Under the pieces are notes generated by a model that saw nothing but the letters and a program-made list of their open reading frames with translations, was not told where the DNA came from and made no database searches. Source: a virus (lineage: Duplodnaviria > Heunggongvirae > Uroviricota > Caudoviricetes). From it: a DNA stretch of 35,056 nucleotides. Below, one piece after another: positions 1 to 18,260 of the stretch. The position numbers and the translations under genes were made by a program. Location: IMG/VR virus record IMGVR_UViG_2734482782_000004; one strand, written 5' to 3'. Positions within the stretch are counted from its first letter, which is position 1, and each line of letters starts with the position of its first letter.

Positions 1-1362
1 ATGTTTAAACCGGAACTCCTTTCCCCGGCGGGAACGCTGAAAAATATGCGTTACGCTTTCGCTTATGGCGCAGATGCTGTTTATGCGGGCCAGCCGCGTT
101 ATTCCCTGCGTGTGCGCAACAACGAATTCAACCACGAAAATCTTCAGCTCGGCATCAATGAAGCCCACGCGCTGGGGAAAAAGTTTTATGTCGTGGTCAA
201 CATTGCACCGCACAACGCCAAGCTGAAAACCTTTATCCGTGACCTGAAACCGGTGGTGGAAATGGGGCCGGATGCGCTGATTATGTCCGATCCAGGGCTG
301 ATTATGCTGGTGCGTGAGCACTTCCCTGAAATGCCGATCCACCTTTCGGTGCAGGCTAACGCCGTGAACTGGGCGACGGTGAAATTCTGGCAGCAAATGG
401 GCCTGACCCGCGTGATCCTCTCTCGCGAGCTGTCGCTGGAAGAGATTGAAGAGATCCGCAATCAGGTGCCGGATATGGAGATCGAGATCTTCGTTCACGG
501 CGCGCTGTGCATGGCCTACTCCGGTCGCTGCCTGCTCTCTGGCTATATCAACAAGCGCGACCCGAACCAGGGCACCTGCACCAACGCCTGCCGCTGGGAG
601 TACAACGTCCAGGAAGGGAAAGAAGATGATGTTGGCAACATCGTACACAAGTACGAGCCGATTCCGGTGCAAAATGTTGAGCCGACGCTGGGTATCGGCG
701 CACCAACCGACAAAGTGTTTATGATCGAAGAGGCCCAGCGTCCGGGCGAGTATATGACCGCGTTTGAAGATGAGCACGGCACTTACATCATGAACTCGAA
801 AGATCTGCGCGCCATCGCCCATGTAGAACGCCTGACCAAAATGGGCGTGCATTCGCTGAAAATCGAAGGTCGTACCAAATCTTTCTACTATTGTGCACGC
901 ACCGCACAGGTTTACCGCAAAGCTATCGATGACGCCGCTGCGGGAAAACCGTTCGATACCAGCCTGCTGGAAACTCTGGAAGGTCTGGCGCATCGTGGCT
1001 ATACCGAAGGTTTCCTGCGTCGTCATACTCACGACGATTATCAGAACTACGAATACGGTTATTCAGTTTCTGACCGCCAGCAGTTTGTTGGTGAGTTTAC
1101 CGGTGAGCGCAAGGGGGACCTCGCGGCGGTAGCGGTGAAAAATAAATTCTCCGTTGGCGACAGCCTTGAGCTGATGACGCCGCAAGGCAACATTAATTTT
1201 ACCCTTGAGCACATGGAAAACGCCAAAGGCGAAGCTATGCCGATAGCACCAGGCGATGGTTATACTGTGTGGCTCCCGGTCCCGCAGGATCTTGAGCTCA
1301 ATTACGCGCTGCTGATGCGTAATTTCTCCGGGGAAACCACGCGTAATCCCCACGGTAAGTGA
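1..1362 (+). CDS. yegQ: U32-family peptidase-like protein YegQ (host gene, left flank)
   Basis: 453-aa ORF starting at window base 1; sequence recognisable as E. coli YegQ (Cys-rich CTNACRWEY region); normal-GC host DNA; lies upstream of cyaR as in E. coli K-12. Confidence 0.88.
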   Translation: MFKPELLSPAGTLKNMRYAFAYGADAVYAGQPRYSLRVRNNEFNHENLQLGINEAHALGKKFYVVVNIAPHNAKLKTFIRDLKPVVEMGPDALIMSDPGLIMLVREHFPEMPIHLSVQANAVNWATVKFWQQMGLTRVILSRELSLEEIEEIRNQVPDMEIEIFVHGALCMAYSGRCLLSGYINKRDPNQGTCTNACRWEYNVQEGKEDDVGNIVHKYEPIPVQNVEPTLGIGAPTDKVFMIEEAQRPGEYMTAFEDEHGTYIMNSKDLRAIAHVERLTKMGVHSLKIEGRTKSFYYCARTAQVYRKAIDDAAAGKPFDTSLLETLEGLAHRGYTEGFLRRHTHDDYQNYEYGYSVSDRQQFVGEFTGERKGDLAAVAVKNKFSVGDSLELMTPQGNINFTLEHMENAKGEAMPIAPGDGYTVWLPVPQDLELNYALLMRNFSGETTRNPHGK

Positions 1363-1446
1363 TTAATTTCGATTATTTTTCCCGGATGGAAAATTCTTAG
1401 AAACCGATCACATACAGCTGCATTTATTAAGGTTATCATCCGTTTC

Positions 1447-1533
1447 GCTGAAAAACATAACCCATAAAATGCTAGCTGTACCAGGAACCACCTCCTTAGC
1501 CTGTGTAATCTCCCTTACACGGGCTTATTTTTT
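1447..1533 (+). ncRNA. cyaR: CyaR (RyeE) small regulatory RNA; its 3' terminator overlaps the prophage attL core
   Basis: 87-nt stretch gctgaaaaacataacccataaaatgctagctgtaccaggaaccacctccttagcctgtgtaatctcccttacacgggcttatttttt matches CyaR as I recall it; ends in hairpin plus U-tract; positioned between yegQ and the ogr end as in K-12. Confidence 0.75.
1507..1533. repeat. attL core (27 bp), identical to attR core
   Basis: aatctcccttacacgggcttatttttt is present at 1507..1533 and again at 34554..34580; it is the reverse complement of the P2 core AAAAAATAAGCCCGTGTAAGGGAGATT as I recall it. Confidence 0.85.
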
Positions 1534-6039: not shown

Positions 6040-6459
6040 TCGTGTTTCCGCTTCGCCGGAGCGCCTTTTCGCGCCATGTGATGAGTTCGGTCAGGCTCAT
6101 GGGATACAGTTCTGATGGCGGCCAGTGAAATATCACTGCCACATCCGCCATCAGGTCATCGACCGAGAGATTTTTCGGAAACGTCACTGCACCGAGTTCG
6201 GCGACAAAAAACCGACCACCTTACCGGCCAGCGCCACAAGGTCAGGCAGTTCCAGTGCGGCGACTTCCTGCTCGGTCAGCATCGGTGCCGTCATGCGCGG
6301 CAGCACCTTAATCAGTGCATCGACTTCGGAGTTTGCGACCGCAGCCAGACTGACACCGCGCAGCGTCCCCGCACTGGGTTTCATCAGCGTGACCTGTTCG
6401 ATAACCTGCTCACCACGTTTGACCGGATTGTCCAGGGTAATCACATTTTCTTTGTTCAT
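6032..6459 (-). CDS. E+E': gpE+E' tail assembly chaperone made by programmed -1 frameshift
   Basis: Hand translation: after -1 slippage on T-TTT-TTG (plus-strand caaaaaa at 6205..6211) the reading frame continues 51 codons (VAELGAVTFPKNLSVDD...RRSGNTNE) to a TAA at 6032..6034 that overlaps the T start codon; 142 aa in total. Confidence 0.75.
6184..6459 (-). CDS. E: Tail assembly chaperone gpE (zero-frame product)
   Basis: 91-aa ORF between FII and T; contains the slippery heptamer near its 3' end. Confidence 0.8.
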   Translation of the reverse strand: MNKENVITLDNPVKRGEQVIEQVTLMKPSAGTLRGVSLAAVANSEVDALIKVLPRMTAPMLTEQEVAALELPDLVALAGKVVGFLSPNSVQ

Positions 6460-7046: not shown

Positions 7047-8237
7047 TTAATTGCTGTTAACCGAGGTGACCAGATTTGCCAGGTATTTATCGGTAATACG
7101 CTGGCGCAGGGTCAGGTTTTCAAGAGGAGGAACCGGGGTATAGTCGTAGTCGATATACAGTTTTCCGGCCTTAAGGGTTTCCGCATCGTTGGATTCTTCG
7201 CTGAACCAGCAGGTCGCATCCACGATATAGCCGTTTGTTTTCAGCTCACGAAATTTGGCATTGATGCCGTCAACGATGTCGCGAATCAGCGTTGCGGTGA
7301 TGGGCTTGTCCACCGCCCACATGTGCGCCTCAGCCATCGTGTCGGCCAGCACCTGCGCGGTGCGGGTGTAGTTTTCAAAGAGGAACAGCGGGTCATCGGA
7401 GCAGGTACGGTTACCCCAGAAGCGGAAACCGTCGCGGCGAATCAGCGTAGTGACGCCTGACTCGTTAAGCAGGTCAGCATCGGTGCCGGACTCCTGCAAA
7501 TCCCAGAATACAGAGGCACTGATGCCGGTAACACCGTTTACCCCGACATTGGACAGCGTTTTATGCCAGCCCTGCTCCTGGTCGATTTTAGCGCGCAGAC
7601 CCAGCGCACGGGCGGTGGCATACGCGGTGGCGGTGGTACTGGTGACCGTATCCCATGCGAGGAAATCAGGCCAGATGACCATCAGCTCACGCTGGCTGAA
7701 ATTCTGGCGGTAGGCTTTCACCTCGGAAATGGTCTTACAGCCCCATGCGCTGATATATCCGAAAGCGCGCAGCTTCTGACAGACTGATGCCAGTGCAACA
7801 GCCACCTCTTTGGTGTCCAGTCCCGGCACGCCGAGAATACGCGGTTTAACACCGGTTACCGACTCCGCCGCCAGCAGGGCTTTCAGTCCGGTGTACTGGC
7901 CGTTTTCGTCGGTGGTGCCGATGATATTGGAAACGGTCTGCGCAAGTTTCGTTTCTTCGTCTTCGCCGGTGCCGTCTTCCACACGTACAACAACGGTGAC
8001 TGGTTTTGACTGGTCAGCGATGGCCTGCAACGACGCCGCCAGCGTGCCTTTTTTACCGGCCTTTGCAATTGCGCTCTGCACATTGGTAATCAGCACAGGT
8101 TTATTGAGGGGAAAGGTTTCCGCATCCGCATCGCTGGCCGTGCAGACCATGCCGACAATGGCAGTGGATACGGTGGAAATGACGCGGGTGCCGTCGTTAA
8201 TCTCCAGCACCTGCACGCCGTGATGATAGTCACTCAT
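7047..8237 (-). CDS. FI: Contractile tail sheath protein gpFI
   Basis: 396-aa ORF, P2 FI length and position; GGAG ribosome-binding site upstream of the ATG. Confidence 0.85.
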   Translation of the reverse strand: MSDYHHGVQVLEINDGTRVISTVSTAIVGMVCTASDADAETFPLNKPVLITNVQSAIAKAGKKGTLAASLQAIADQSKPVTVVVRVEDGTGEDEETKLAQTVSNIIGTTDENGQYTGLKALLAAESVTGVKPRILGVPGLDTKEVAVALASVCQKLRAFGYISAWGCKTISEVKAYRQNFSQRELMVIWPDFLAWDTVTSTTATAYATARALGLRAKIDQEQGWHKTLSNVGVNGVTGISASVFWDLQESGTDADLLNESGVTTLIRRDGFRFWGNRTCSDDPLFLFENYTRTAQVLADTMAEAHMWAVDKPITATLIRDIVDGINAKFRELKTNGYIVDATCWFSEESNDAETLKAGKLYIDYDYTPVPPLENLTLRQRITDKYLANLVTSVNSN

Positions 8238-8359: not shown

Positions 8360-8517
8360 CTGTCCTGATTTGTACTCACTCATTTTCCGCCTGACAATTT
8401 ACATAGCCCAAATGCTATCAAATCTGACAGTCTGCTTTGAGCGAGGAGCGGACATTGAGCTTGGTCTCAAGTATGCTGATTTTTTTTAGCTAATATCTTG
8501 GTTTTTTGATCAATAGG

Positions 8518-8547
8518 TTGCTGGTCAGCCCTAGGATCAGATATAAA
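8518..8547 (+). promoter_or_regulatory. Candidate sigma70 promoter for the HNH-like cargo gene
   Basis: TTGCTG (8518..8523), 18-bp spacer, TATAAA (8542..8547), about 55 bp upstream of the ATG at 8603; read by eye only. Confidence 0.3.
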
Positions 8548-8602
8548 AAGTATGATTTTATTCTCCCCACATAGATGAAAAAAACAAAGAAGCATAACTT
8601 TT

Positions 8603-9355
8603 ATGACCAAGACAAATAGGCACAACTTTCCTCCAAGCGTTGTAGGTAAGGTAGCAGAGCGCGCTGCATATATTTGTAGCAATCCCTCTTGTCATAGGGT
8701 AACAATCGGCCCGGATCAATTGGCGGAAAATCTTTCTATCAAGACGGGTGAGGCGGCGCATATCTGCGCGGCGAGCCCTGGCGGACCGCGCTATGACATG
8801 TCTCAGTCAGAAACAGAGCGGAAGAGCATAAAAAATGCTATATGGTTGTGCGGAGCTTGTGCTGATTTAGTTGATAAGAATGGCGGTATGGGCTACCCCG
8901 CCGAGTATTTGCGAAAATGGAAACGTGACCACGAATCACTAATGAAGGAGTGCTTGGAGGGAGGAAAGAGGCTAATTTTTCAATTTCTATCGCATCGCCC
9001 AGACGAGAAAATTGCTCTGCGGGTGATCCATTTATTGGAAGACAAGAGTTCTCTTTATCTGCCATATGCTCAAGAGGATCCAGCACGAGTCTCGGATTCT
9101 TTGAAGGAGCTCCGACTCTCTCTTACGGCGATTCGCTCCGAGATTGCACCTGAGTCTCCGCTATCGTTGATCGTCGAGTCAATTGTCCGTGCGTGCCGAC
9201 ACTATATGAATTCAACGCCAGATCGGCCGGGCATTGATGAGCTTAACTTCTCCCTCGGCGCAGTTCGTAAGGTAGTAGGAATTAACATCGGAGAACTATT
9301 GAAACACTATGAAATCCAGGTGAGTCACGAATTGCATTCTATTATTCCTAAATGA
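8603..9355 (+). CDS. Cargo protein with N-terminal HNH-like nuclease motif and a C-terminal domain of unknown function (candidate defence effector)
   Basis: 250-aa ORF in AT-rich DNA at the Z/fun position; residues 25-93 read C-x4-C-H ... GEAAHICAASPGG ... N-x4-LCGAC ... DKN, resembling the HNH beta-beta-alpha-Me fold with a Cys4 zinc knuckle; own terminator at 9378..9412. Confidence 0.6.
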   Translation: MTKTNRHNFPPSVVGKVAERAAYICSNPSCHRVTIGPDQLAENLSIKTGEAAHICAASPGGPRYDMSQSETERKSIKNAIWLCGACADLVDKNGGMGYPAEYLRKWKRDHESLMKECLEGGKRLIFQFLSHRPDEKIALRVIHLLEDKSSLYLPYAQEDPARVSDSLKELRLSLTAIRSEIAPESPLSLIVESIVRACRHYMNSTPDRPGIDELNFSLGAVRKVVGINIGELLKHYEIQVSHELHSIIPK

Positions 9356-9377
9356 ATTTTAACCAATAACTCAAGTT

Positions 9378-9412
9378 GGCGAAGCCTGAAAAAGATGAGC
9401 TTCGCCATTTTT
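9378..9412 (+). terminator. Rho-independent terminator after the HNH-like gene
   Basis: Hairpin ggcgaagc-(13 nt)-gcttcgcc followed by attttt. Confidence 0.6.
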
Positions 9413-9516
9413 CTCGGACCTTGAGTAATTAGTGCAGACACAATAAGCATATTGTTTTCGAGTGCACGACGAACGTAGTTTTCGATACTTTGAGTATTAT
9501 AGCTTCAACTTTTTAC

Positions 9517-10302
9517 TTACATCAAAAATAACTTACAATATTTGTAAGTTGCTTTGTGTACGAAAATGCTTGCGTCAACTCTTGACATCGGATTTTTTAA
9601 TATCCCTCCGGAACTTCCCTTTCCATGTCTCGCAAGATACCCTAACAGTTCAAAGCTATTAGCAGTGCCCGTGAATCTGCTGATTTCCTTTTCATCAATA
9701 TTAAAAGCCATGCTAATTACTTTATCTCTCTGATATTTCTTGCCTTTATAAGTGTCGGGAAAATTTAGTATACCTTTCACATATTTATCATATACATATT
9801 CTCTAATTGTTTCCCACAAACGATAAAGATTAACCCAATCATCACCTAAGGCACACATACCTAAAACAACACGTAAGGATTCATGTTTAGATGATAAATT
9901 AATTAATCGTGAAAAATTATCAGCGCGAGGGTGTGGTTGCTGTATGTCATGGAAATTAAAGGGGTTTACCTGAGTTACATCCATTGATTTAAAGCCGCAT
10001 ATTTCCGAGTAATTAATGCCTTCACTTCCAGAAATAGAAAGAGGACCAAAAGATTGATATCTTTCAAAACCATAAAGAACGCTAAGTGCGCCGTTCATGA
10101 GCATCAACAAACCTTTTAACTTGGAAGCCAATTCATTTGGGTCGGATATGATATTCAAATGAGGAGATGAAAGTAAATGAATATCTGTTTGCCCTAAATC
10201 AGAGTCAGAATCATCATTTATAGAGAAATCATTCGACCAAACTCCACATAATCTTTTAACAAATCCTGTAGATGGAGTAAGTAAAAAACTATAATCGTAC
10301 AT
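9517..10302 (-). CDS. Hypothetical cargo protein, 261 aa, no recognisable motif
   Basis: Long ORF in strongly AT-rich DNA, where chance ORFs of this length are unlikely; ATG at 10300..10302 preceded by GAGGGA about 8 nt upstream; convergent with the HNH-like gene. Confidence 0.55.
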   Translation of the reverse strand: MYDYSFLLTPSTGFVKRLCGVWSNDFSINDDSDSDLGQTDIHLLSSPHLNIISDPNELASKLKGLLMLMNGALSVLYGFERYQSFGPLSISGSEGINYSEICGFKSMDVTQVNPFNFHDIQQPHPRADNFSRLINLSSKHESLRVVLGMCALGDDWVNLYRLWETIREYVYDKYVKGILNFPDTYKGKKYQRDKVISMAFNIDEKEISRFTGTANSFELLGYLARHGKGSSGGILKNPMSRVDASIFVHKATYKYCKLFLM

Positions 10303-10456
10303 AACTCAAATCCCTCTTTTTTATATCCTAAATGGAATACAAAAATTATTGTTTATTTGTTATGTTCAATATACTCACATAACCGAAAACTTTAACACGC
10401 TCATTCTAAGTGAACTAAATCTAAAGATATACCTTTGAAAACTGAAAACTCAATGC

Positions 10457-10487
10457 TGGCAACGTCCGCTCCTGGCACAAAGCGAAC
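10457..10487. repeat. 31-bp imperfect direct repeat, copy A (27/31 identical to copy B)
   Basis: tggcaacgtccgctcctggcacaaagcgaac here versus tggcaatgtctgctcctggcacagagcggac at 11820..11850. Confidence 0.7.
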
Positions 10488-10551
10488 ATTCCTTGACGTC
10501 CTGTCAGGGAAACCCACCTGGACGTTCAGGTGATTCTGTCGATTATAGTCA

Positions 10552-10577
10552 TAAAAAAGCCGCCCCGGAGGGACGGC
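10552..10577 (-). terminator. Strong rho-independent terminator of the 227-aa membrane-protein gene
   Basis: Minus-strand GC-rich hairpin gccgtccc-tcc-ggggcggc followed by TTTTTTAT, about 80 nt downstream of the stop at 10657. Confidence 0.7.
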
Positions 10578-10656
10578 TATAAACTCGCCAGTTAACAAGC
10601 TGATTTTACCGCTTACGCGGTTCTGTCGTTGCGGTGTTCGCTGACCCACTGCGCCT

Positions 10657-11340
10657 TTACAGTTTATCGCTTATGAATCCATGAGCCTTAAATGTCCTGA
10701 CAAAATCCTCATAGCGCGCAATCATCCCCCCCGATGTTTCACGCACATTTTGCTGATGAAAGCGGAAGTTTGCCTCCGATTCAACACTCTTACTCTTCCA
10801 GTCATGGGGAAGGCTTAGCATCACTGGCTTTCTGTTCGGGTAATCAACACTCATAAATGGTAGCGTACTATCTACGTATGCGGTCATAGCGTCCAAAAAA
10901 GCGTCTTTCGCACCATTCACTTCAGTATTGAATAACCGATACTTTTCACCGCTAAATTTTTCAGCTTTTTCAATGTTTAAGCAAACATCTTGCCGTATAC
11001 CGCTCAGGTAGCTCTGCTCAACCCATTGAGTAGTATCCTCATAAGGCAGCAATTCAAGGATCTGGTCGATTATCTTCAGATCATGTTCATCTTGCTTTTT
11101 TTTTACAGGGTCCTCAGTAGATTCATTGGATGTGTGGTAAACGTTGGTGGTCTGATTAATATCCCGCCCGGCCTGGTTCACATCACCCTCGGTTTTCTTT
11201 GCCTTCTGTTTTATGTTGTTTTGCTGTCTGATTCTATATGTAACACCGCCCCCAATACCAAACAGTGCCAGTACGCCGACTAATAAGCTAAGATAGGTAG
11301 CTGCGTCTGCACCAAAATGTGCATTAAGCCATTCAGTCAT
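10657..11340 (-). CDS. Cargo membrane-anchored protein, 227 aa (N-terminal TM helix, then soluble domain); candidate single-gene defence or abortive-infection effector
   Basis: ORF with hydrophobic segment AATYLSLLVGVLALFGIGGGV at residues about 12-33; own extended -10 promoter and own terminator; AAGGA ribosome-binding site. Confidence 0.6.
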   Translation of the reverse strand: MTEWLNAHFGADAATYLSLLVGVLALFGIGGGVTYRIRQQNNIKQKAKKTEGDVNQAGRDINQTTNVYHTSNESTEDPVKKKQDEHDLKIIDQILELLPYEDTTQWVEQSYLSGIRQDVCLNIEKAEKFSGEKYRLFNTEVNGAKDAFLDAMTAYVDSTLPFMSVDYPNRKPVMLSLPHDWKSKSVESEANFRFHQQNVRETSGGMIARYEDFVRTFKAHGFISDKL

Positions 11341-11370
11341 TTGAACTATGTCCTTACAGTGTGAGTAAAG

Positions 11371-11400
11371 ATTATAATAACAGAGCTAACTTGCGCAGAA
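11371..11400 (-). promoter_or_regulatory. Candidate extended -10 sigma70 promoter of the 227-aa gene
   Basis: Minus-strand reads ttctgcgcaagttagctctgTtattataat: TGnTATTAT / TATAAT element with a weak -35; lies immediately downstream of the terminator at 11403..11433. Confidence 0.45.
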
Positions 11401-11402
11401 AC

Positions 11403-11433
11403 GAAAAAAGGCAGGGGAGGTAACCCCCCTGCC
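11403..11433 (-). terminator. Rho-independent terminator, probable end of the tail-fibre late transcript
   Basis: Minus-strand hairpin ggcagggg-(loop)-cccctgcc (11410..11433) followed by TTTTTTCGTTT. Confidence 0.65.
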
Positions 11434-11819
11434 TTTAATCAAGTTCCTCCATCCCTTACGGGCGTCCGGTCAGTTGCTTGATGGCAACCAGACCAGCTAG
11501 CATTATTTGCATCACCAGTAAGACTGTTGTTAGCGTTATCACTTCGACGTCTCCTCTTCCAGGAGAGCGCCACACGTAGTAAGTGCTTTTGGTTCTACCC
11601 GCCCCCCTCACTCCGCATCCATTAGTTAGCAGGTACAAGCAGCACTCTTTCGTGTGGTAAGCCAACAGGACAGCACTGGACTGACGCCTTGAGCTTTAAT
11701 ATTTCCTTCCGATCCATACAACTAGGTCTGTTAAAAGCCCCTAGGACGAATTCTACAGAGATGGCTATGGTGCAGGTTTCGGCTATAGGGCTCTTTGATG
11801 TAATCGAGGGTCATAACGT

Positions 11820-11850
11820 TGGCAATGTCTGCTCCTGGCACAGAGCGGAC
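11820..11850. repeat. 31-bp imperfect direct repeat, copy B, just 3' of gene G
   Basis: See copy A; copy B overlaps the left arm of a 10-bp-stem hairpin (11836..11877, tggcacagag / ctctgtgcca) lying 22 nt downstream of the G stop. Confidence 0.7.
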
Positions 11851-11899
11851 TGTCAGATTAGGCTTTACTCTGTGCCATAGATATGTAAGCTAATACAAC

Positions 11900-12427
11900 T
11901 TATTGCGGCATTTCCGGCCATTCAGGATTTGCAGGATCCACACGACTGATCAGAACGCTGTAGCGTTCCCATGATTCCAGTCGGCTACGCTCCTCATCTG
12001 TTGCCATGTTCAGTCTGACCGCGCGCTCCAGCGGCAAAATCACGGATTCAGCATCTGCAAGAAGTCTGGCTTTCCGAATTTCTGCCTGCTGCTGTAATTC
12101 CTCTGCCGTATAAATGCGTTTAATCACTTTGCCGTCCTTAAACATCCAGTTCCCTGAAATGTCCGCCCGTCGGTTAGCAGTAATATCCGCCACTTCAACA
12201 ACACTTAATCCATCCGGTCTGATAGCTGTCACATCCTTTTCCACATAGTGGATGATATTATCTTTGTCGTACGCTATTTTTATCGTGTCATCAGCAAAAT
12301 ACTTTTGTTCTTCGTACCAGTTCTTACCATCTTCTGAAAAAAACCAGACAACATCAAAGTCCTTTGTCAATTGATATTGTTCAACCGTTTTTGGATTACC
12401 CGCCGTAATATTTTTTAAATGCTGCAT
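11900..12427 (-). CDS. G: Tail fibre assembly chaperone gpG
   Basis: 175-aa ORF immediately downstream of H, P2 G length. Confidence 0.8.
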
Positions 12428-16474: not shown

Positions 16475-17100
16475 AGAGGACTCCCGGTTTTGCCGCCGCT
16501 GTCGCCGGGGTGTTTATGGGTATGCAGTACCTTCCCGTTTGATGAAAGTTCACCGCCGGTGTGTTCAATGTTGCCGCGCATCGTCCCGCCCTTCTGCACT
16601 TCCAGCGTGCCGGTAATCAGCTTGTTGGTGCAGACCACCTCCGGTGTGTCCAGGGTGACGCGGGTTGATGCTTTCACCATGACCACCGGCACCGTGGCAG
16701 TAACAGAATCAGAAGCCGTCACGCTGGCCGTTTTAATTCCGCTTACCGTGAGTGCACTGGTTTCAGGTTCATACTCAATCACCGCCCCGTCAGGGAAACG
16801 GATATGCAGGGCATCCGCCGACGCCGACGGCGCGGGGTTATCGCCGGAATAAATCCCCGGCAGAACAAACGCCGTGTCAAGTTCACCGCCCACGGCCAGA
16901 ATCAGCACCTGTTCCCCCACGGAAGGTGCCCACCATGTGCGCGAACGACCGGCGCGATGGGTCAGCCACTGAAGCCAGTCGGTGCACATGCCGCCGGTCT
17001 GCACACGGCAGCGACCGGCATTAAGGTCGGTTTCGACGATAATGCCAGTGCGAATCATATTGCGTATAAAGCGAAGAATTTCATTGTATTGTGCATTCAT
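16471..17100 (-). CDS. V: Baseplate spike protein gpV
   Basis: 209-aa product from the internal ATG (MNAQYNEILRFIRNMIRTGIIVETDLNAGR...); the longer track ORF begins at an upstream alternative start inside cargo DNA. Confidence 0.8.
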   Translation of the reverse strand: MNAQYNEILRFIRNMIRTGIIVETDLNAGRCRVQTGGMCTDWLQWLTHRAGRSRTWWAPSVGEQVLILAVGGELDTAFVLPGIYSGDNPAPSASADALHIRFPDGAVIEYEPETSALTVSGIKTASVTASDSVTATVPVVMVKASTRVTLDTPEVVCTNKLITGTLEVQKGGTMRGNIEHTGGELSSNGKVLHTHKHPGDSGGKTGSPL

Positions 17101-17186
17101 TCGATAATAATGATTCTGTACAATCTCGAAGTAAATCACACCACGATTTCTGGTGCACAGAACAACAAGGGACAACAAAATCCATT

Positions 17187-18260
17187 ATGAGTACTTACTT
17201 TTTCTCGTCAGAAACAATGAAAGAATTGTTCAAAGATTATCTGGTCTTTTTGAACACGCTGACTCCCAGCACAAACTTTGAATCAAACAGAAACAAAATA
17301 ATTGCTCAAGCAATAAACTTCATTTCCGAAAACCCTGAAGATTGGGACAAAAAATCCCAGTACAACATTGCTATGATTGGCGACACCTTTAAAAGTTTCT
17401 TAAGAGAAAAGGGAGAAGATAACAACAGCATCAACCTTATATTCACTTGCTTTTTTAGATTTATCATTGAACCAAGCATTCTCTCTCCGGAAATAGAGTC
17501 TCACTTTTCACCACTAAGAACCATCAAGGATTTTGCTCTGTATAACTATAATGAATTCGATGAGCGGAGCAGAGCACAGATAGACTTTTCTCTTAGAGAA
17601 CTGCCATTAGCAATGGTTAAAGAAGTTTTAAGCTCCAGCAATGTTGACACATATAAAAAATACATTGATAGTTTAAACGAAGGGCGTCAATTTTTCGAAA
17701 AGTGCGACTCCTTCTTAAAGGAGCAACATGCCAAAATAGAGTCAATTAAAGAGTCATTAAAAGGGTATGAGGTCGCATTTAATTTTGTTGGACTGTTTGA
17801 AGGCTTTAATTCACTTGGCAAAAAGAAAGAAAGTGAAATCATGCTATCAAGAATAATTCTTATCATCTTGGCTATAATCATTCCCTCCCCGCTGATATAC
17901 TATGGAATGCATAAATTACCAGCTCTCGAAACGACAAATGCTGCCACATATTTTATGTCAGCACTACCTTTTGCATCAGTTACATTGATTTTCATGTATT
18001 ACTTTAGAGTTGTACTGCTAAATCATATATCGTTACGAACTCAGATTATGCAAATAGAACTCAGAAAGAGCCTTTGTCAGTTCATTCAGAGTTATAGCGA
18101 CTATTCCTCAGAGATAAGGAAAAACAATCCGGAAGCGCTTTCAAAATTCGAAGACGTAGTATTTTCAAACATCATGCTATCCGATGATAAGATACCATCT
18201 ACATTTGATGGCATTGAGCAAATAGCATCGTTAATCAATTCATTAAAAAATGGAAAGTAA
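17187..18260 (+). CDS. Cargo membrane protein, 357 aa (soluble N-domain of about 215 aa, two TM helices, C-terminal tail of about 80 aa), at the S-V junction (P2 orf30 position)
   Basis: AT-rich ORF opposite in strand to the tail genes; ATG at 17187 with AAGGGA 14 nt upstream (the next ATG is at 17217); hydrophobic segments IMLSRIILIILAIIIPSPLIYYG and AATYFMSALPFASVTLIFMYYFRVVLL; followed by a bidirectional terminator. Confidence 0.6.
   Translation: MSTYFFSSETMKELFKDYLVFLNTLTPSTNFESNRNKIIAQAINFISENPEDWDKKSQYNIAMIGDTFKSFLREKGEDNNSINLIFTCFFRFIIEPSILSPEIESHFSPLRTIKDFALYNYNEFDERSRAQIDFSLRELPLAMVKEVLSSSNVDTYKKYIDSLNEGRQFFEKCDSFLKEQHAKIESIKESLKGYEVAFNFVGLFEGFNSLGKKKESEIMLSRIILIILAIIIPSPLIYYGMHKLPALETTNAATYFMSALPFASVTLIFMYYFRVVLLNHISLRTQIMQIELRKSLCQFIQSYSDYSSEIRKNNPEALSKFEDVVFSNIMLSDDKIPSTFDGIEQIASLINSLKNGK

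What the first reader, a model, noticed from the sequence alone, without database searches (positions are those of the whole stretch)
10552..11433. Self-contained transcription unit for a 227-aa membrane-anchored protein
Seen in sequence: minus-strand extended -10 promoter (TGtTATTATAAT near 11371..11382) placed immediately after a strong terminator (11403..11433); AAGGA ribosome-binding site; ORF with one N-terminal TM helix and a charged soluble domain; strong GC-rich terminator at 10552..10577. Inference: the insulated, constitutive-looking arrangement is typical of lysogen-expressed moron genes such as superinfection exclusion or abortive-infection membrane effectors.
Basis: partly seen in the sequence, partly recalled or inferred. 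Interest (0 to 1): 0.65.

Follow-up and report, generated by a model that had tools for sequence, protein, structure and literature searches.

The report
Mobile membrane-protein moron in P2 prophage
This is a real, self-contained one-gene unit in the known variable slot between the tail-fibre and tail-sheath genes of a P2-like prophage; it encodes an unstudied inner-membrane-anchored protein that is probably an anti-phage gene, but its function has never been tested.

Summary
A 227-aa ORF (11340..10657, minus strand) has an AAGGA ribosome-binding site and an extended -10 (TGtTATTATAAT, 11382..11371). Strong terminators lie upstream (11436..11407) and downstream (10578..10558).

The protein has one N-terminal membrane helix. 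Charge distribution predicts N-out/C-in topology. The cytoplasmic part is a confidently predicted five-helix bundle.

The gene sits in the P2 "Z/fun" slot between genes G and FI, a low-GC cargo region. It belongs to a 1.4-kb cassette (10464..11850) bounded by a 24-nt palindrome. That cassette recurs at 99.8% identity in CP4-44-type islands. Diverged homologues are single-gene integron cassettes in Vibrio, or lie in a lambdoid prophage, an ICE, plasmids and a defence island.

No Pfam, PADLOC, PHROG or NCBIfam family matches, and no informative fold match was found. Both halves are shuffled modules:
- The C-terminal bundle also occurs fused to TIR or two-helix membrane N-termini.
- The N-terminal module also occurs fused to, or encoded beside, Vpar_1526 or TPR proteins.

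DefensePredictor (Science 2026) lists this exact protein as a "predicted novel defense gene"; it is absent from the list of cloned units.

Verdict: a genuine mobile moron and a plausible single-gene membrane defence protein. The mechanism is inferred only. The flanking inverted repeats were already annotated in the 2004-era P2 Z-region GenBank records.

The parts
11407..11436 (-). Upstream intrinsic terminator: 13-bp stem, 4-nt loop, T-run continuing to about 11397. It insulates the gene from read-through coming from the tail-fibre side.
   Evidence: Terminator scan; sequence.
11371..11382 (-). Promoter -10 region TGtTATTATAAT: extended -10 TGnTATTAT overlapping a perfect TATAAT at 11376..11371. 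There is no good -35.
   Evidence: Sequence. Not called by the consensus scan because it lacks a -35. TGnTAnnnT is conserved 39-42 nt before the ATG in diverged homologues L005, L006, L011 and L013.
11351..11355 (-). Ribosome-binding site AAGGA, 10 nt upstream of the ATG.
   Evidence: Sequence. The 5' leader GTAAGGACAyAGTTCAAATG is conserved in L011 and L013.
10657..11340 (-). ORF of 227 aa, identical to WP_000141343.1 as annotated in L002, L004 and L001, product 'hypothetical protein'.
   Evidence: Full-length homologues at 36-63% identity with 40 invariant residues.
11158..11340 (-). N-terminal module, residues 1-61: conserved tail M-x-x-W-L-N-x-x-x-G-x-D-x-A-T-Y, membrane helix (residues 14-34 = nt 11239..11301), basic stretch, GDVNQAGRDIN motif.
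   Evidence: Alignment. Hydropathy and charge: 0 K/R before the helix, 6 K/R in the 20 residues after it. The module recurs alone as 58-75-aa proteins and fused to Vpar_1526/LPO_1073 domains.
10684..11109 (-). C-terminal five-helix bundle, residues 78-219, predicted cytoplasmic.
   Evidence: AlphaFold2 model, 10-residue block mean pLDDT above 90 over most of the domain with a dip to 52-73 at residues 161-190. Only generic helical-bundle fold matches. The domain recurs behind TIR or two-helix membrane N-termini.
10558..10578 (-). Downstream intrinsic terminator: 9-bp GC-rich stem followed by TTTTTT.
10464..11850 (.). The mobile cassette. Its ends are two direct copies of the 24-nt palindrome GTCCGCTC-CTGGCACA-GAGCGGAC, at 10464..10487 and 11827..11850.
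   Evidence: 99.8% identical over 10464..11861 to CP4-44-type islands, with the break points at the palindromes. Empty site with a single palindrome copy in E. coli Nissle.
8421..8457 (.). Left arm of the 37-nt inverted repeat that bounds the whole P2 cargo region. The right arm is 11823..11859. It contains the third palindrome copy at 8430..8453.
   Evidence: Repeat search. P2 backbone homology stops at these arms. The same element is annotated 'left inverted repeat' in GenBank AJ512679.
11456..11542 (-). Possible 28-codon hydrophobic small ORF (GTG start, GAGGAG 8 nt upstream) that ends just before the upstream terminator. It lies inside the same cassette and its status is uncertain.
   Evidence: This upstream stretch is found only together with the cassette, in 32 genomes. 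No promoter was called for it.

Best explanation
The unit is an autonomous, horizontally mobile 'moron' carried in the Z/fun cargo slot of a P2-like prophage. It has its own -35-independent promoter and is insulated by a terminator on each side.

It makes a single-pass inner-membrane protein: a short conserved tail outside, and a flexible linker plus a five-helix bundle in the cytoplasm.

The most likely role is a one-gene anti-phage or anti-mobile-element protein. In this model the cytoplasmic bundle is the specificity or sensing part. The conserved N-terminal membrane module is the executing part, acting at the membrane by oligomerisation and loss of membrane integrity or energisation, in the manner of abortive infection.

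Shown here: the anatomy, the mobility, the single-gene autonomy and the modular shuffling. Inferred: the defence role, the sensor/effector assignment and the membrane mechanism.
For: Anatomy.

Moron criteria:
- Position between P2 genes G and FI.
- Low GC.
- Different cargo at the same slot in related phages.

Mobility:
- An identical 1.4-kb cassette occurs in CP4-44-type islands and on a plasmid; in all it is present in 33 of 5426 complete E. coli genomes.
- A second clade moves as an ~840-nt unit between an ICE, a lambdoid prophage and a viral contig.

Single-gene autonomy:
- The Vibrio homologue is a one-ORF integron cassette bounded by attC-like repeats.
- The Pseudoalteromonas copy has similar attC-like flanks.

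The promoter travels with the gene.

Defence-type neighbourhoods:
- KAP NTPase and Abi_2.
- HEPN genes immediately downstream on Yersinia and Salmonella plasmids.
- Toxin-antitoxin-rich integron array.
- SXT-like ICE.
- An HNH/DUF6650 gene next door in the window.

Two-way modularity:
- The C-terminal domain is also found behind a TIR_2 domain (P0057, Pfam E=1.2e-7, encoded next to AbiEi/AbiEii) or behind two-helix membrane N-termini.
- The N-terminal module is also found fused to LPO_1073/Vpar_1526 domains, or as a separate 64-70-aa gene abutting Vpar_1526 or TPR genes.

The C-terminal domain has no conserved catalytic-looking set of residues.

Independent prediction: DefensePredictor Table S5 lists WP_000141343.1 as 'Predicted novel defense gene' with mean log-odds 5.34, above that paper's strict cut-off of 4 (PMC13092281).
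Against: - No phenotype of any kind exists. The protein is absent from the list of cloned units in that study.
- No hit in PADLOC, Pfam, PHROGs or NCBIfam.
- The fold is a generic helical bundle, which says nothing about function.
- Guilt by association is weak for a family of only about 16 clusters at 90% identity.
- Cargo slots of mobile elements also hold non-defence genes.
- The sensor/effector assignment could be reversed, or the membrane module could be only a tether.
- Topology rests on the positive-inside rule alone.
- The promoter is a sequence motif only.
Confidence: 0.5

Rival explanations
1. Non-abortive superinfection exclusion. The membrane-anchored protein blocks genome entry of incoming phages at the inner membrane without killing the cell, as small prophage membrane proteins encoded near tail genes do in other phages.
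For: - A prophage-borne, promoter-equipped small membrane protein next to tail genes.
- A homologue sits just after the tail-fibre genes of a lambdoid prophage.
- The short periplasmic tail is unusually conserved: W4, N6, G10 and D12 are invariant. That would suit contact with an incoming injection apparatus or a membrane partner.
- From my own knowledge, the canonical gene at this slot, P2 Z/fun, is reported to block phage T5.
Against: - The folded domain is predicted to be cytoplasmic.
- Relatives carry a TIR domain in place of the membrane module, which is hard to reconcile with a pure entry block.
- No similarity to any phage protein family.
- The family also lives in integrons, plasmids and islands.
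Confidence: 0.2
2. An accessory membrane protein unrelated to phage defence, for example a maintenance, addiction, stress or host-fitness function of mobile elements. It would simply hitch-hike in cargo slots.
For: - No defence-family match.
- Cargo slots also carry non-defence genes; Rousset et al. 2022 note partition systems and toxins in P2 hotspots (PMC9122126).
- Toxin-antitoxin neighbours in the integron array.
- A possible small hydrophobic ORF lies in the same cassette.
Against: - TIR-fused relatives next to AbiE.
- HEPN partners.
- Abi_2 and KAP NTPase neighbours.
- The DefensePredictor score.
Confidence: 0.22
3. One component of a multi-gene system with the neighbouring 261-aa and 250-aa (HNH/DUF6650) genes of the same P2 island.
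For: The three genes travel together in 15 E. coli genomes.
Against: - A strong terminator and a palindrome junction separate the 227-aa gene from the other two.
- The 227-aa cassette occurs without them in CP4-44-type islands, in SE11 and on a plasmid.
- The downstream genes of different homologues are unrelated to one another.
- The Vibrio homologue is a one-gene integron cassette.
Confidence: 0.05
4. A virion or lysis protein of the prophage. This is the outcome the first reader named as refuting.
For: A profile search against sequences of solved structures gave one hit, the baseplate protein gp11 of Vibrio phage XM1, at E=8.6e-5 over residues 66-180.
Against: - gp11 is described as a beta-sandwich tube-like protein with a loop insertion (PMC10457771). 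The aligned part of this protein is confidently all-helical.
- No PHROG or viral-structure match, and no match in 50,697 phage records.
- The gene occurs in integrons, islands and plasmids.
Confidence: 0.02

Closest known systems
Cargo inserts of the P2 'Z region' (Z/fun slot between genes G and FI). GenBank records such as AJ512679 annotate them as 'putative lysogenic conversion protein' flanked by an inverted repeat. They are linked to Nilsson, Karlsson & Haggard-Ljungquist, Mol Biol Evol 2004 (doi 10.1093/molbev/msg223; the paper is not held, so its content is recalled from memory).
   Same: - Same slot.
- Same low-GC cargo.
- Each ORF has its own promoter.
- Same flanking inverted repeat, whose inner end is the 24-nt palindrome.
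   Different: - This particular gene is in none of the 50,697 phage records searched.
- Here the cargo consists of two cassettes separated by a third, internal palindrome copy.
Morons of temperate phages: promoter-gene-terminator units inserted between late genes. The definition is taken from established phage literature, from my own knowledge.
   Same: Own promoter, terminators on both sides, deviant GC, variable presence.
   Different: The same unit also circulates outside phages, in genomic islands, plasmids and, for homologues, integrons.
Single-gene membrane-anchored abortive-infection or exclusion proteins, for example lactococcal AbiP, HK97 gp15 and T4 Imm. This is a resemblance recalled from memory, not tested by sequence.
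   Same: A small protein with an N-terminal membrane helix, encoded by a mobile element and working alone.
   Different: No detectable sequence or fold relation to any known family. The phenotype is unknown.
Defence proteins built as interchangeable effector plus sensor modules, in which TIR and transmembrane effectors alternate, as in CBASS, Pycsar, Thoeris and retron effectors (established knowledge).
   Same: The C-terminal bundle is found behind a one-helix module, two-helix modules or a TIR_2 domain. The TIR of P0057 resembles SpbK, TIR-TM and ThsB models.
   Different: No signalling enzyme or nucleotide-binding domain is associated. The trigger is unknown.
LPO_1073/Vpar_1526 family proteins with the same N-terminal membrane module (NCBIfam NF045477, Pfam PF28206).
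   Same: They share the conserved W-L-N...G-x-D-x-A-T-Y helix module, either fused or as a separate upstream small gene.
   Different: The cytoplasmic domain is unrelated. That family is itself uncharacterised.
Integron gene cassettes.
   Same: The Vibrio alginolyticus homologue is a one-ORF cassette between attC-like repeats, and the Pseudoalteromonas copy has similar attC-like flanks. The E. coli version is likewise a discrete unit bounded by short palindromic sites, with an empty-site allele.
   Different: The E. coli sites are a 24-nt palindrome unrelated to attC. No integrase is linked to them.

Membership tests
Phage moron | Own promoter upstream of the gene | tested here: met
   Extended -10 at 11382..11371. 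The motif is conserved 39-42 nt before the ATG in diverged homologues. This is sequence-level evidence only; activity was not measured.
Phage moron | Terminator after the gene | tested here: met
   9-bp GC-rich stem plus T-run at 10578..10558. An additional insulating terminator lies upstream at 11436..11407.
Phage moron | Inserted between conserved phage genes, variably present, deviant base composition | tested here: met
   Lies between G and FI. GC 0.43-0.47 against 0.53-0.58 for the flanking tail genes. Other P2 phages carry other cargo here.
Phage moron | Expressed from the repressed prophage | not testable with these tools
   Needs RNA-seq or 5' RACE in a lysogen.
P2 Z-region insert | Cargo bounded by the G-side and FI-side inverted repeats | tested here: met
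   37-nt arms at 8421..8457 and 11823..11859. Backbone homology to other P2 phages stops there. The depositors of AJ512679 annotated the same repeat.
Known anti-phage defence families (PADLOC-DB v2) | Significant match to a family model | tested here: not met
   0 families at E<=0.1.
Known phage protein families (PHROGs, viral structure library, phage records) | Sequence or fold match to a virion, lysis or exclusion protein | tested here: not met
   No PHROG match. No tblastn hit in phage records. No viral-structure match at E<=0.001. The weak hit to XM1 gp11 is fold-incompatible.
HEPN nucleases | R-x(4-6)-H motif at the start of the last helix of a four-helix bundle | tested here: not met
   The invariant residues near the last helix are E189, R193 and Q196, and H195 is not conserved. 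There is no Pfam HEPN hit. The HEPN proteins are separate downstream genes in some homologues.
Abortive-infection membrane effector | Membrane-inserted segment | tested here: met
   One hydrophobic helix, residues 14-34. It is conserved across the family.
Abortive-infection membrane effector | Infection-triggered membrane damage and cell death that protects the population | not testable with these tools
   Needs infection assays at high and low multiplicity, together with membrane dyes.
Periplasm-facing superinfection-exclusion proteins | Functional domain on the periplasmic side | tested here: inconclusive
   The positive-inside rule predicts a cytoplasmic C-terminal domain: 0 against 6 K/R residues on the two sides of the helix. 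Only 13 residues are predicted outside. This is a prediction, not a measurement.
Integron gene cassette | Single ORF bounded by attC sites | tested here: not met
   Met for the Vibrio homologue in L007. The window copy is bounded by a different 24-nt palindrome.

The most novel reading that the evidence does not exclude
The protein is the founding example of an unrecognised class of one-gene immune proteins built from two freely recombining parts.

- One part is a small conserved membrane module (W-L-N...G-x-D-x-A-T-Y, helix, G-G-D motif). This module also serves Vpar_1526 and TPR partners.
- The other part is a new cytoplasmic helical sensor domain, which elsewhere drives TIR or two-helix effectors.

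The gene would be moved between P2 prophages, genomic islands and plasmids. The vehicle would be a still-unidentified site-specific recombination system acting on a 24-nt palindrome that occurs across many Enterobacterales genera.
Probability: 0.3. Interest if true: 0.65.

Novelty: new member of a known kind. Interest (0 to 1): 0.42.

Why it matters
If the gene protects against phages, it would add a family with no known domains to the list of prophage-borne immune genes. It would also give a handle on two uncharacterised modules that recur with TIR, Vpar_1526 and TPR partners.

The cassette has clean boundaries and an empty-site allele. That makes it a convenient test case for how defence cargo is swapped between P2 phages and other mobile elements. 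A 2026 preprint on P2 and P4 hotspots states that this recombination process is still unexplained (10.64898/2026.02.27.708500).

Tried and rejected

2. HEPN nuclease. No R-x4-6-H motif and no Pfam hit.

3. Operon partner. The downstream genes of different homologues are unrelated to one another.

4. Non-coding RNA. Nothing relevant in Rfam at gathering or E<=1 thresholds.

6. New recombination site. I first took the 24-nt palindrome for an undescribed recombination site. GenBank AJ512679 shows that the inverted repeat at the P2 Z region was annotated by the authors of the 2004 study. The paper itself is not in the library.

7. Literature. A search for the accession in main texts found nothing. 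The only mention is in a supplementary table of DefensePredictor.

8. Small N-module proteins. They match no Pfam family above threshold. In PHROGs the only match of note is an unknown-function family (phrog_27656, E=1.9e-5), and the rest are weak.

Full report
**What is in the sequence**

On the minus strand there is an ATG-initiated ORF of 227 codons at 11340..10657. AAGGA lies at 11355..11351, 10 nt before the start. The string TGtTATTATAAT occupies 11382..11371. It reads either as an extended -10 (TGnTATTAT) or as a perfect TATAAT three bases further on. No -35 hexamer reaches 4 of 6, so the consensus scan did not list it.

A 13-bp stem with a T-run lies immediately upstream at 11436..11407. 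A 9-bp GC-rich stem with TTTTTT lies downstream at 10578..10558. The scan found 7 terminator-like sites in this 3-kb region, against 2.1 +/- 1.5 in shuffles.

The promoter is more than a chance motif. TGnTAnnnT sits 39-42 nt before the start codon in homologues on a Yersinia plasmid, a Salmonella plasmid, a defence island and an ICE. Those proteins are about 45-59% identical to this one. In two of them the leader GTAAGGACAyAGTTCAAATG is also kept.

**Where it sits**

The window is a complete P2-like prophage next to yegQ and the CyaR sRNA. Recognisable genes include:
- tail-fibre assembly gene G at 12427..11900;
- tail sheath FI at 8237..7047;
- terminase, replication gene A and integrase.

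The 3.6 kb between G and FI has GC of 0.32-0.47, against 0.53-0.58 in the tail genes. It holds three ORFs:
- the 227-aa gene;
- a 261-aa gene (10302..9517);
- a convergent 250-aa gene (8603..9355), whose N-terminus matches HNH models of PADLOC candidate PDC-M68A and of CBASS effectors. RefSeq names it a DUF6650 family protein.

From established knowledge of P2, this is the Z/fun slot, a site for lysogenic-conversion genes. Related P2 phages carry other cargo there.

**It is a discrete mobile cassette**

The stretch 10464..11861 is 99.8% identical to a segment of CP4-44-type genomic islands in other E. coli. There it lies between a HEPN-like gene and a YeeP-like GTPase gene. A 98.5% copy is in strain SE11, and a copy truncated by IS100 is on a plasmid. 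In all, 33 of 5426 complete E. coli genomes have the cassette. Fifteen of them have it in the three-gene P2 arrangement.

The break points coincide with a 24-nt palindrome, GTCCGCTC-CTGGCACA-GAGCGGAC. It is present at 10464..10487 and 11827..11850 in direct orientation, and at 8430..8453 in inverted orientation.

E. coli Nissle has the same island flanks with one palindrome copy and no gene, which is an empty site. The variant bases fit a crossover inside the palindrome:
- empty site: GTCC...GGAC;
- left end of the filled site: GTCC...GAAC;
- right end of the filled site: GTCT...GGAC.

The palindrome occurs in 43 stretches of species-representative genomes, nearly all Enterobacterales, with unrelated flanks. 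In the Nissle island all five copies lie in one ~10-kb stretch containing accessory genes, against 0.08 expected by chance.

This is not new in outline. Homology to other P2 phages stops exactly at the outer palindromes. GenBank AJ512679 ("P2-EC45 proviral Z-region") annotates a "left inverted repeat" whose inner end is this palindrome. It calls the enclosed ORFs "putative lysogenic conversion proteins". [quoted passage not shown] From memory, that study proposed site-specific insertion. The recombinase is, to my knowledge, unknown. A 2026 preprint on P2 and P4 hotspots still calls the recombination process unresolved and does not mention palindromes.

**The protein**

Hydropathy shows one membrane helix, residues about 14-34. 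The 13-residue N-tail has no Lys or Arg, and the 20 residues after the helix have six. The positive-inside rule therefore predicts N-out/C-in topology.

After a Q/N/G/D-rich linker carrying a GDVNQAGRDIN motif comes the folded domain. The motif is expanded to several repeats in one homologue. Residues 78-219 fold as a five-helix bundle with pLDDT mostly above 90.

**The family and its contexts**

A search of 5.8 billion proteins found 16 clusters, at 36-100% identity. They share 40 invariant positions, and the short external tail is strikingly conserved. The contexts are:
- conjugative plasmids of Yersinia and Salmonella, where a HEPN gene follows within 11-16 nt with no terminator;
- a Vibrio alginolyticus chromosomal integron, where the gene is a one-ORF cassette between attC-like repeats among toxin-antitoxin cassettes;
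- a similar cassette in Pseudoalteromonas;
- a site directly after the tail-fibre genes of a lambdoid prophage;
- a site between a KAP NTPase pair and an Abi_2 gene;
- an SXT-like ICE.

A second clade moves as an ~840-nt unit among the ICE, the lambdoid prophage and a viral contig. The gene therefore works alone and travels with its promoter.

**Modularity**

A profile search of 1.8 billion representatives found 61 relatives.

The C-terminal bundle recurs behind other N-termini. These are several two-helix membrane segments and, in P0057, a TIR_2 domain (Pfam E=1.2e-7, above threshold). That TIR resembles SpbK, TIR-TM and ThsB models, and P0057 is encoded next to AbiEi/AbiEii.

The N-terminal module recurs in two forms. 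It is fused to LPO_1073/Vpar_1526 domains. It also exists as stand-alone 58-75-aa proteins, whose genes overlap or abut a Vpar_1526 or a TPR gene.

Both halves are thus independent, recombining parts. This is a pattern typical of conflict systems (established knowledge). The C-terminal domain pairs alternately with membrane segments and TIR, which are both classical effectors, and it lacks a catalytic-looking conserved set. I therefore infer that it is the sensing part and that the membrane module is the executing part.

**Independent prediction**

DefensePredictor (Science 2026, PMC13092281) lists WP_000141343.1 in Table S5 as "Predicted novel defense gene", with mean log-odds 5.34. That paper's strict cut-off is 4.

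The accession is absent from the untruncated Table S6, which lists the cloned units with their protein accessions. So it appears not to have been tested. The same paper reports DUF6650, the domain named for the neighbouring 250-aa gene, as newly validated in defence, in a different protein, DS-27.

**Verdict**

The transcription unit is real. It is a moron by every sequence criterion, and it is part of a mobile, palindrome-bounded cassette in a known P2 cargo slot. A defence role is the best-supported reading, at roughly even odds. The abortive, membrane-acting mechanism is inference. Exclusion at entry, or a non-defence accessory role, remain open. A virion or lysis role is effectively excluded.

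The finding is a good candidate for a plaque-assay test rather than a surprise. The slot, the flanking repeats and the "predicted defence gene" label all exist already.

Noticed in passing
window 8430-8453, 10464-10487, 11827-11850; also L016:5001-5024, L002:5001-5024 and 6364-6387, L003, L006:6796-6819, L013:1616-1639, L018-L060: A 24-nt palindrome, GTCCGCTC-CTsGCwCA-GAGCGGAC, marks every cassette junction in the P2 Z region and in the variable parts of CP4-44-type islands. It occurs across many Enterobacterales genera with unrelated flanks. An empty-site allele and the half-site variants fit a crossover inside the palindrome. The P2 inverted repeat was already annotated in GenBank AJ512679. 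No recombinase was identified here.
   Followed up: yes
window 11456-11542 (minus strand): A 28-codon hydrophobic ORF (VITLTTVLLVMQIMLAGLVAIKQLTGRP) with a GTG start and GAGGAG 8 nt upstream. It ends just before the upstream terminator, inside the same mobile cassette. It resembles small membrane toxins in size and composition, but no promoter, antisense partner or homologue was found. The surrounding 300 nt occur only together with the cassette (32 genomes).
   Followed up: partly
window 8458-10463 (ORFs 8603-9355 plus strand, 9517-10302 minus strand): A second cassette in the same slot holds a 250-aa protein convergent with a 261-aa protein. The 250-aa protein has an N-terminal HNH domain (PADLOC PDC-M68A, E=3.8e-24; CBASS-type HNH effector models) and is named DUF6650 family in RefSeq. 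The 261-aa protein matches no family. DUF6650 was reported as a newly validated defence domain in a different protein (DS-27) by DefensePredictor.
   Followed up: partly
L074 and L075 (P2-type viral contigs); E. coli RS571 (hit H16); position equivalent to window about 10564-10572: Some copies carry a ~1.3-kb insertion with a 9-bp duplication exactly in the downstream GC-rich terminator of the 227-aa gene. In RS571 an IS4-like IS421 transposase is annotated there. Insertion sequences appear to target this hairpin.
   Followed up: partly
window 17091-18260 (plus strand): A 389-codon ORF with a GTG start on the opposite strand, between baseplate gene V and gene S. It has no Pfam match. In a related prophage (L017) the equivalent position holds an adenylate/guanylate-cyclase-domain gene, so this may be a further cargo slot.
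   Followed up: no
window 1-1530: The prophage abuts yegQ (Peptidase_U32) and the CyaR sRNA (1445-1530; Rfam 100.7 bits).
   Followed up: no
L007:5814-6844 and L010:5900-6850: The Vibrio and Pseudoalteromonas homologues are integron-type cassettes. Each carries a promoter-like CTGTATTAAAAT about 40 nt before the start codon, resembling the E. coli CTGTTATTATAAT.
   Followed up: partly
L064-L070 (metagenome and genome contigs): Small 64-70-aa membrane proteins made only of the conserved N-terminal module are encoded overlapping or abutting genes for Vpar_1526 (PF28206) or TPR proteins. This is an uncharacterised two-gene arrangement whose fused form also exists (P0039, P0044, P0063).
   Followed up: partly
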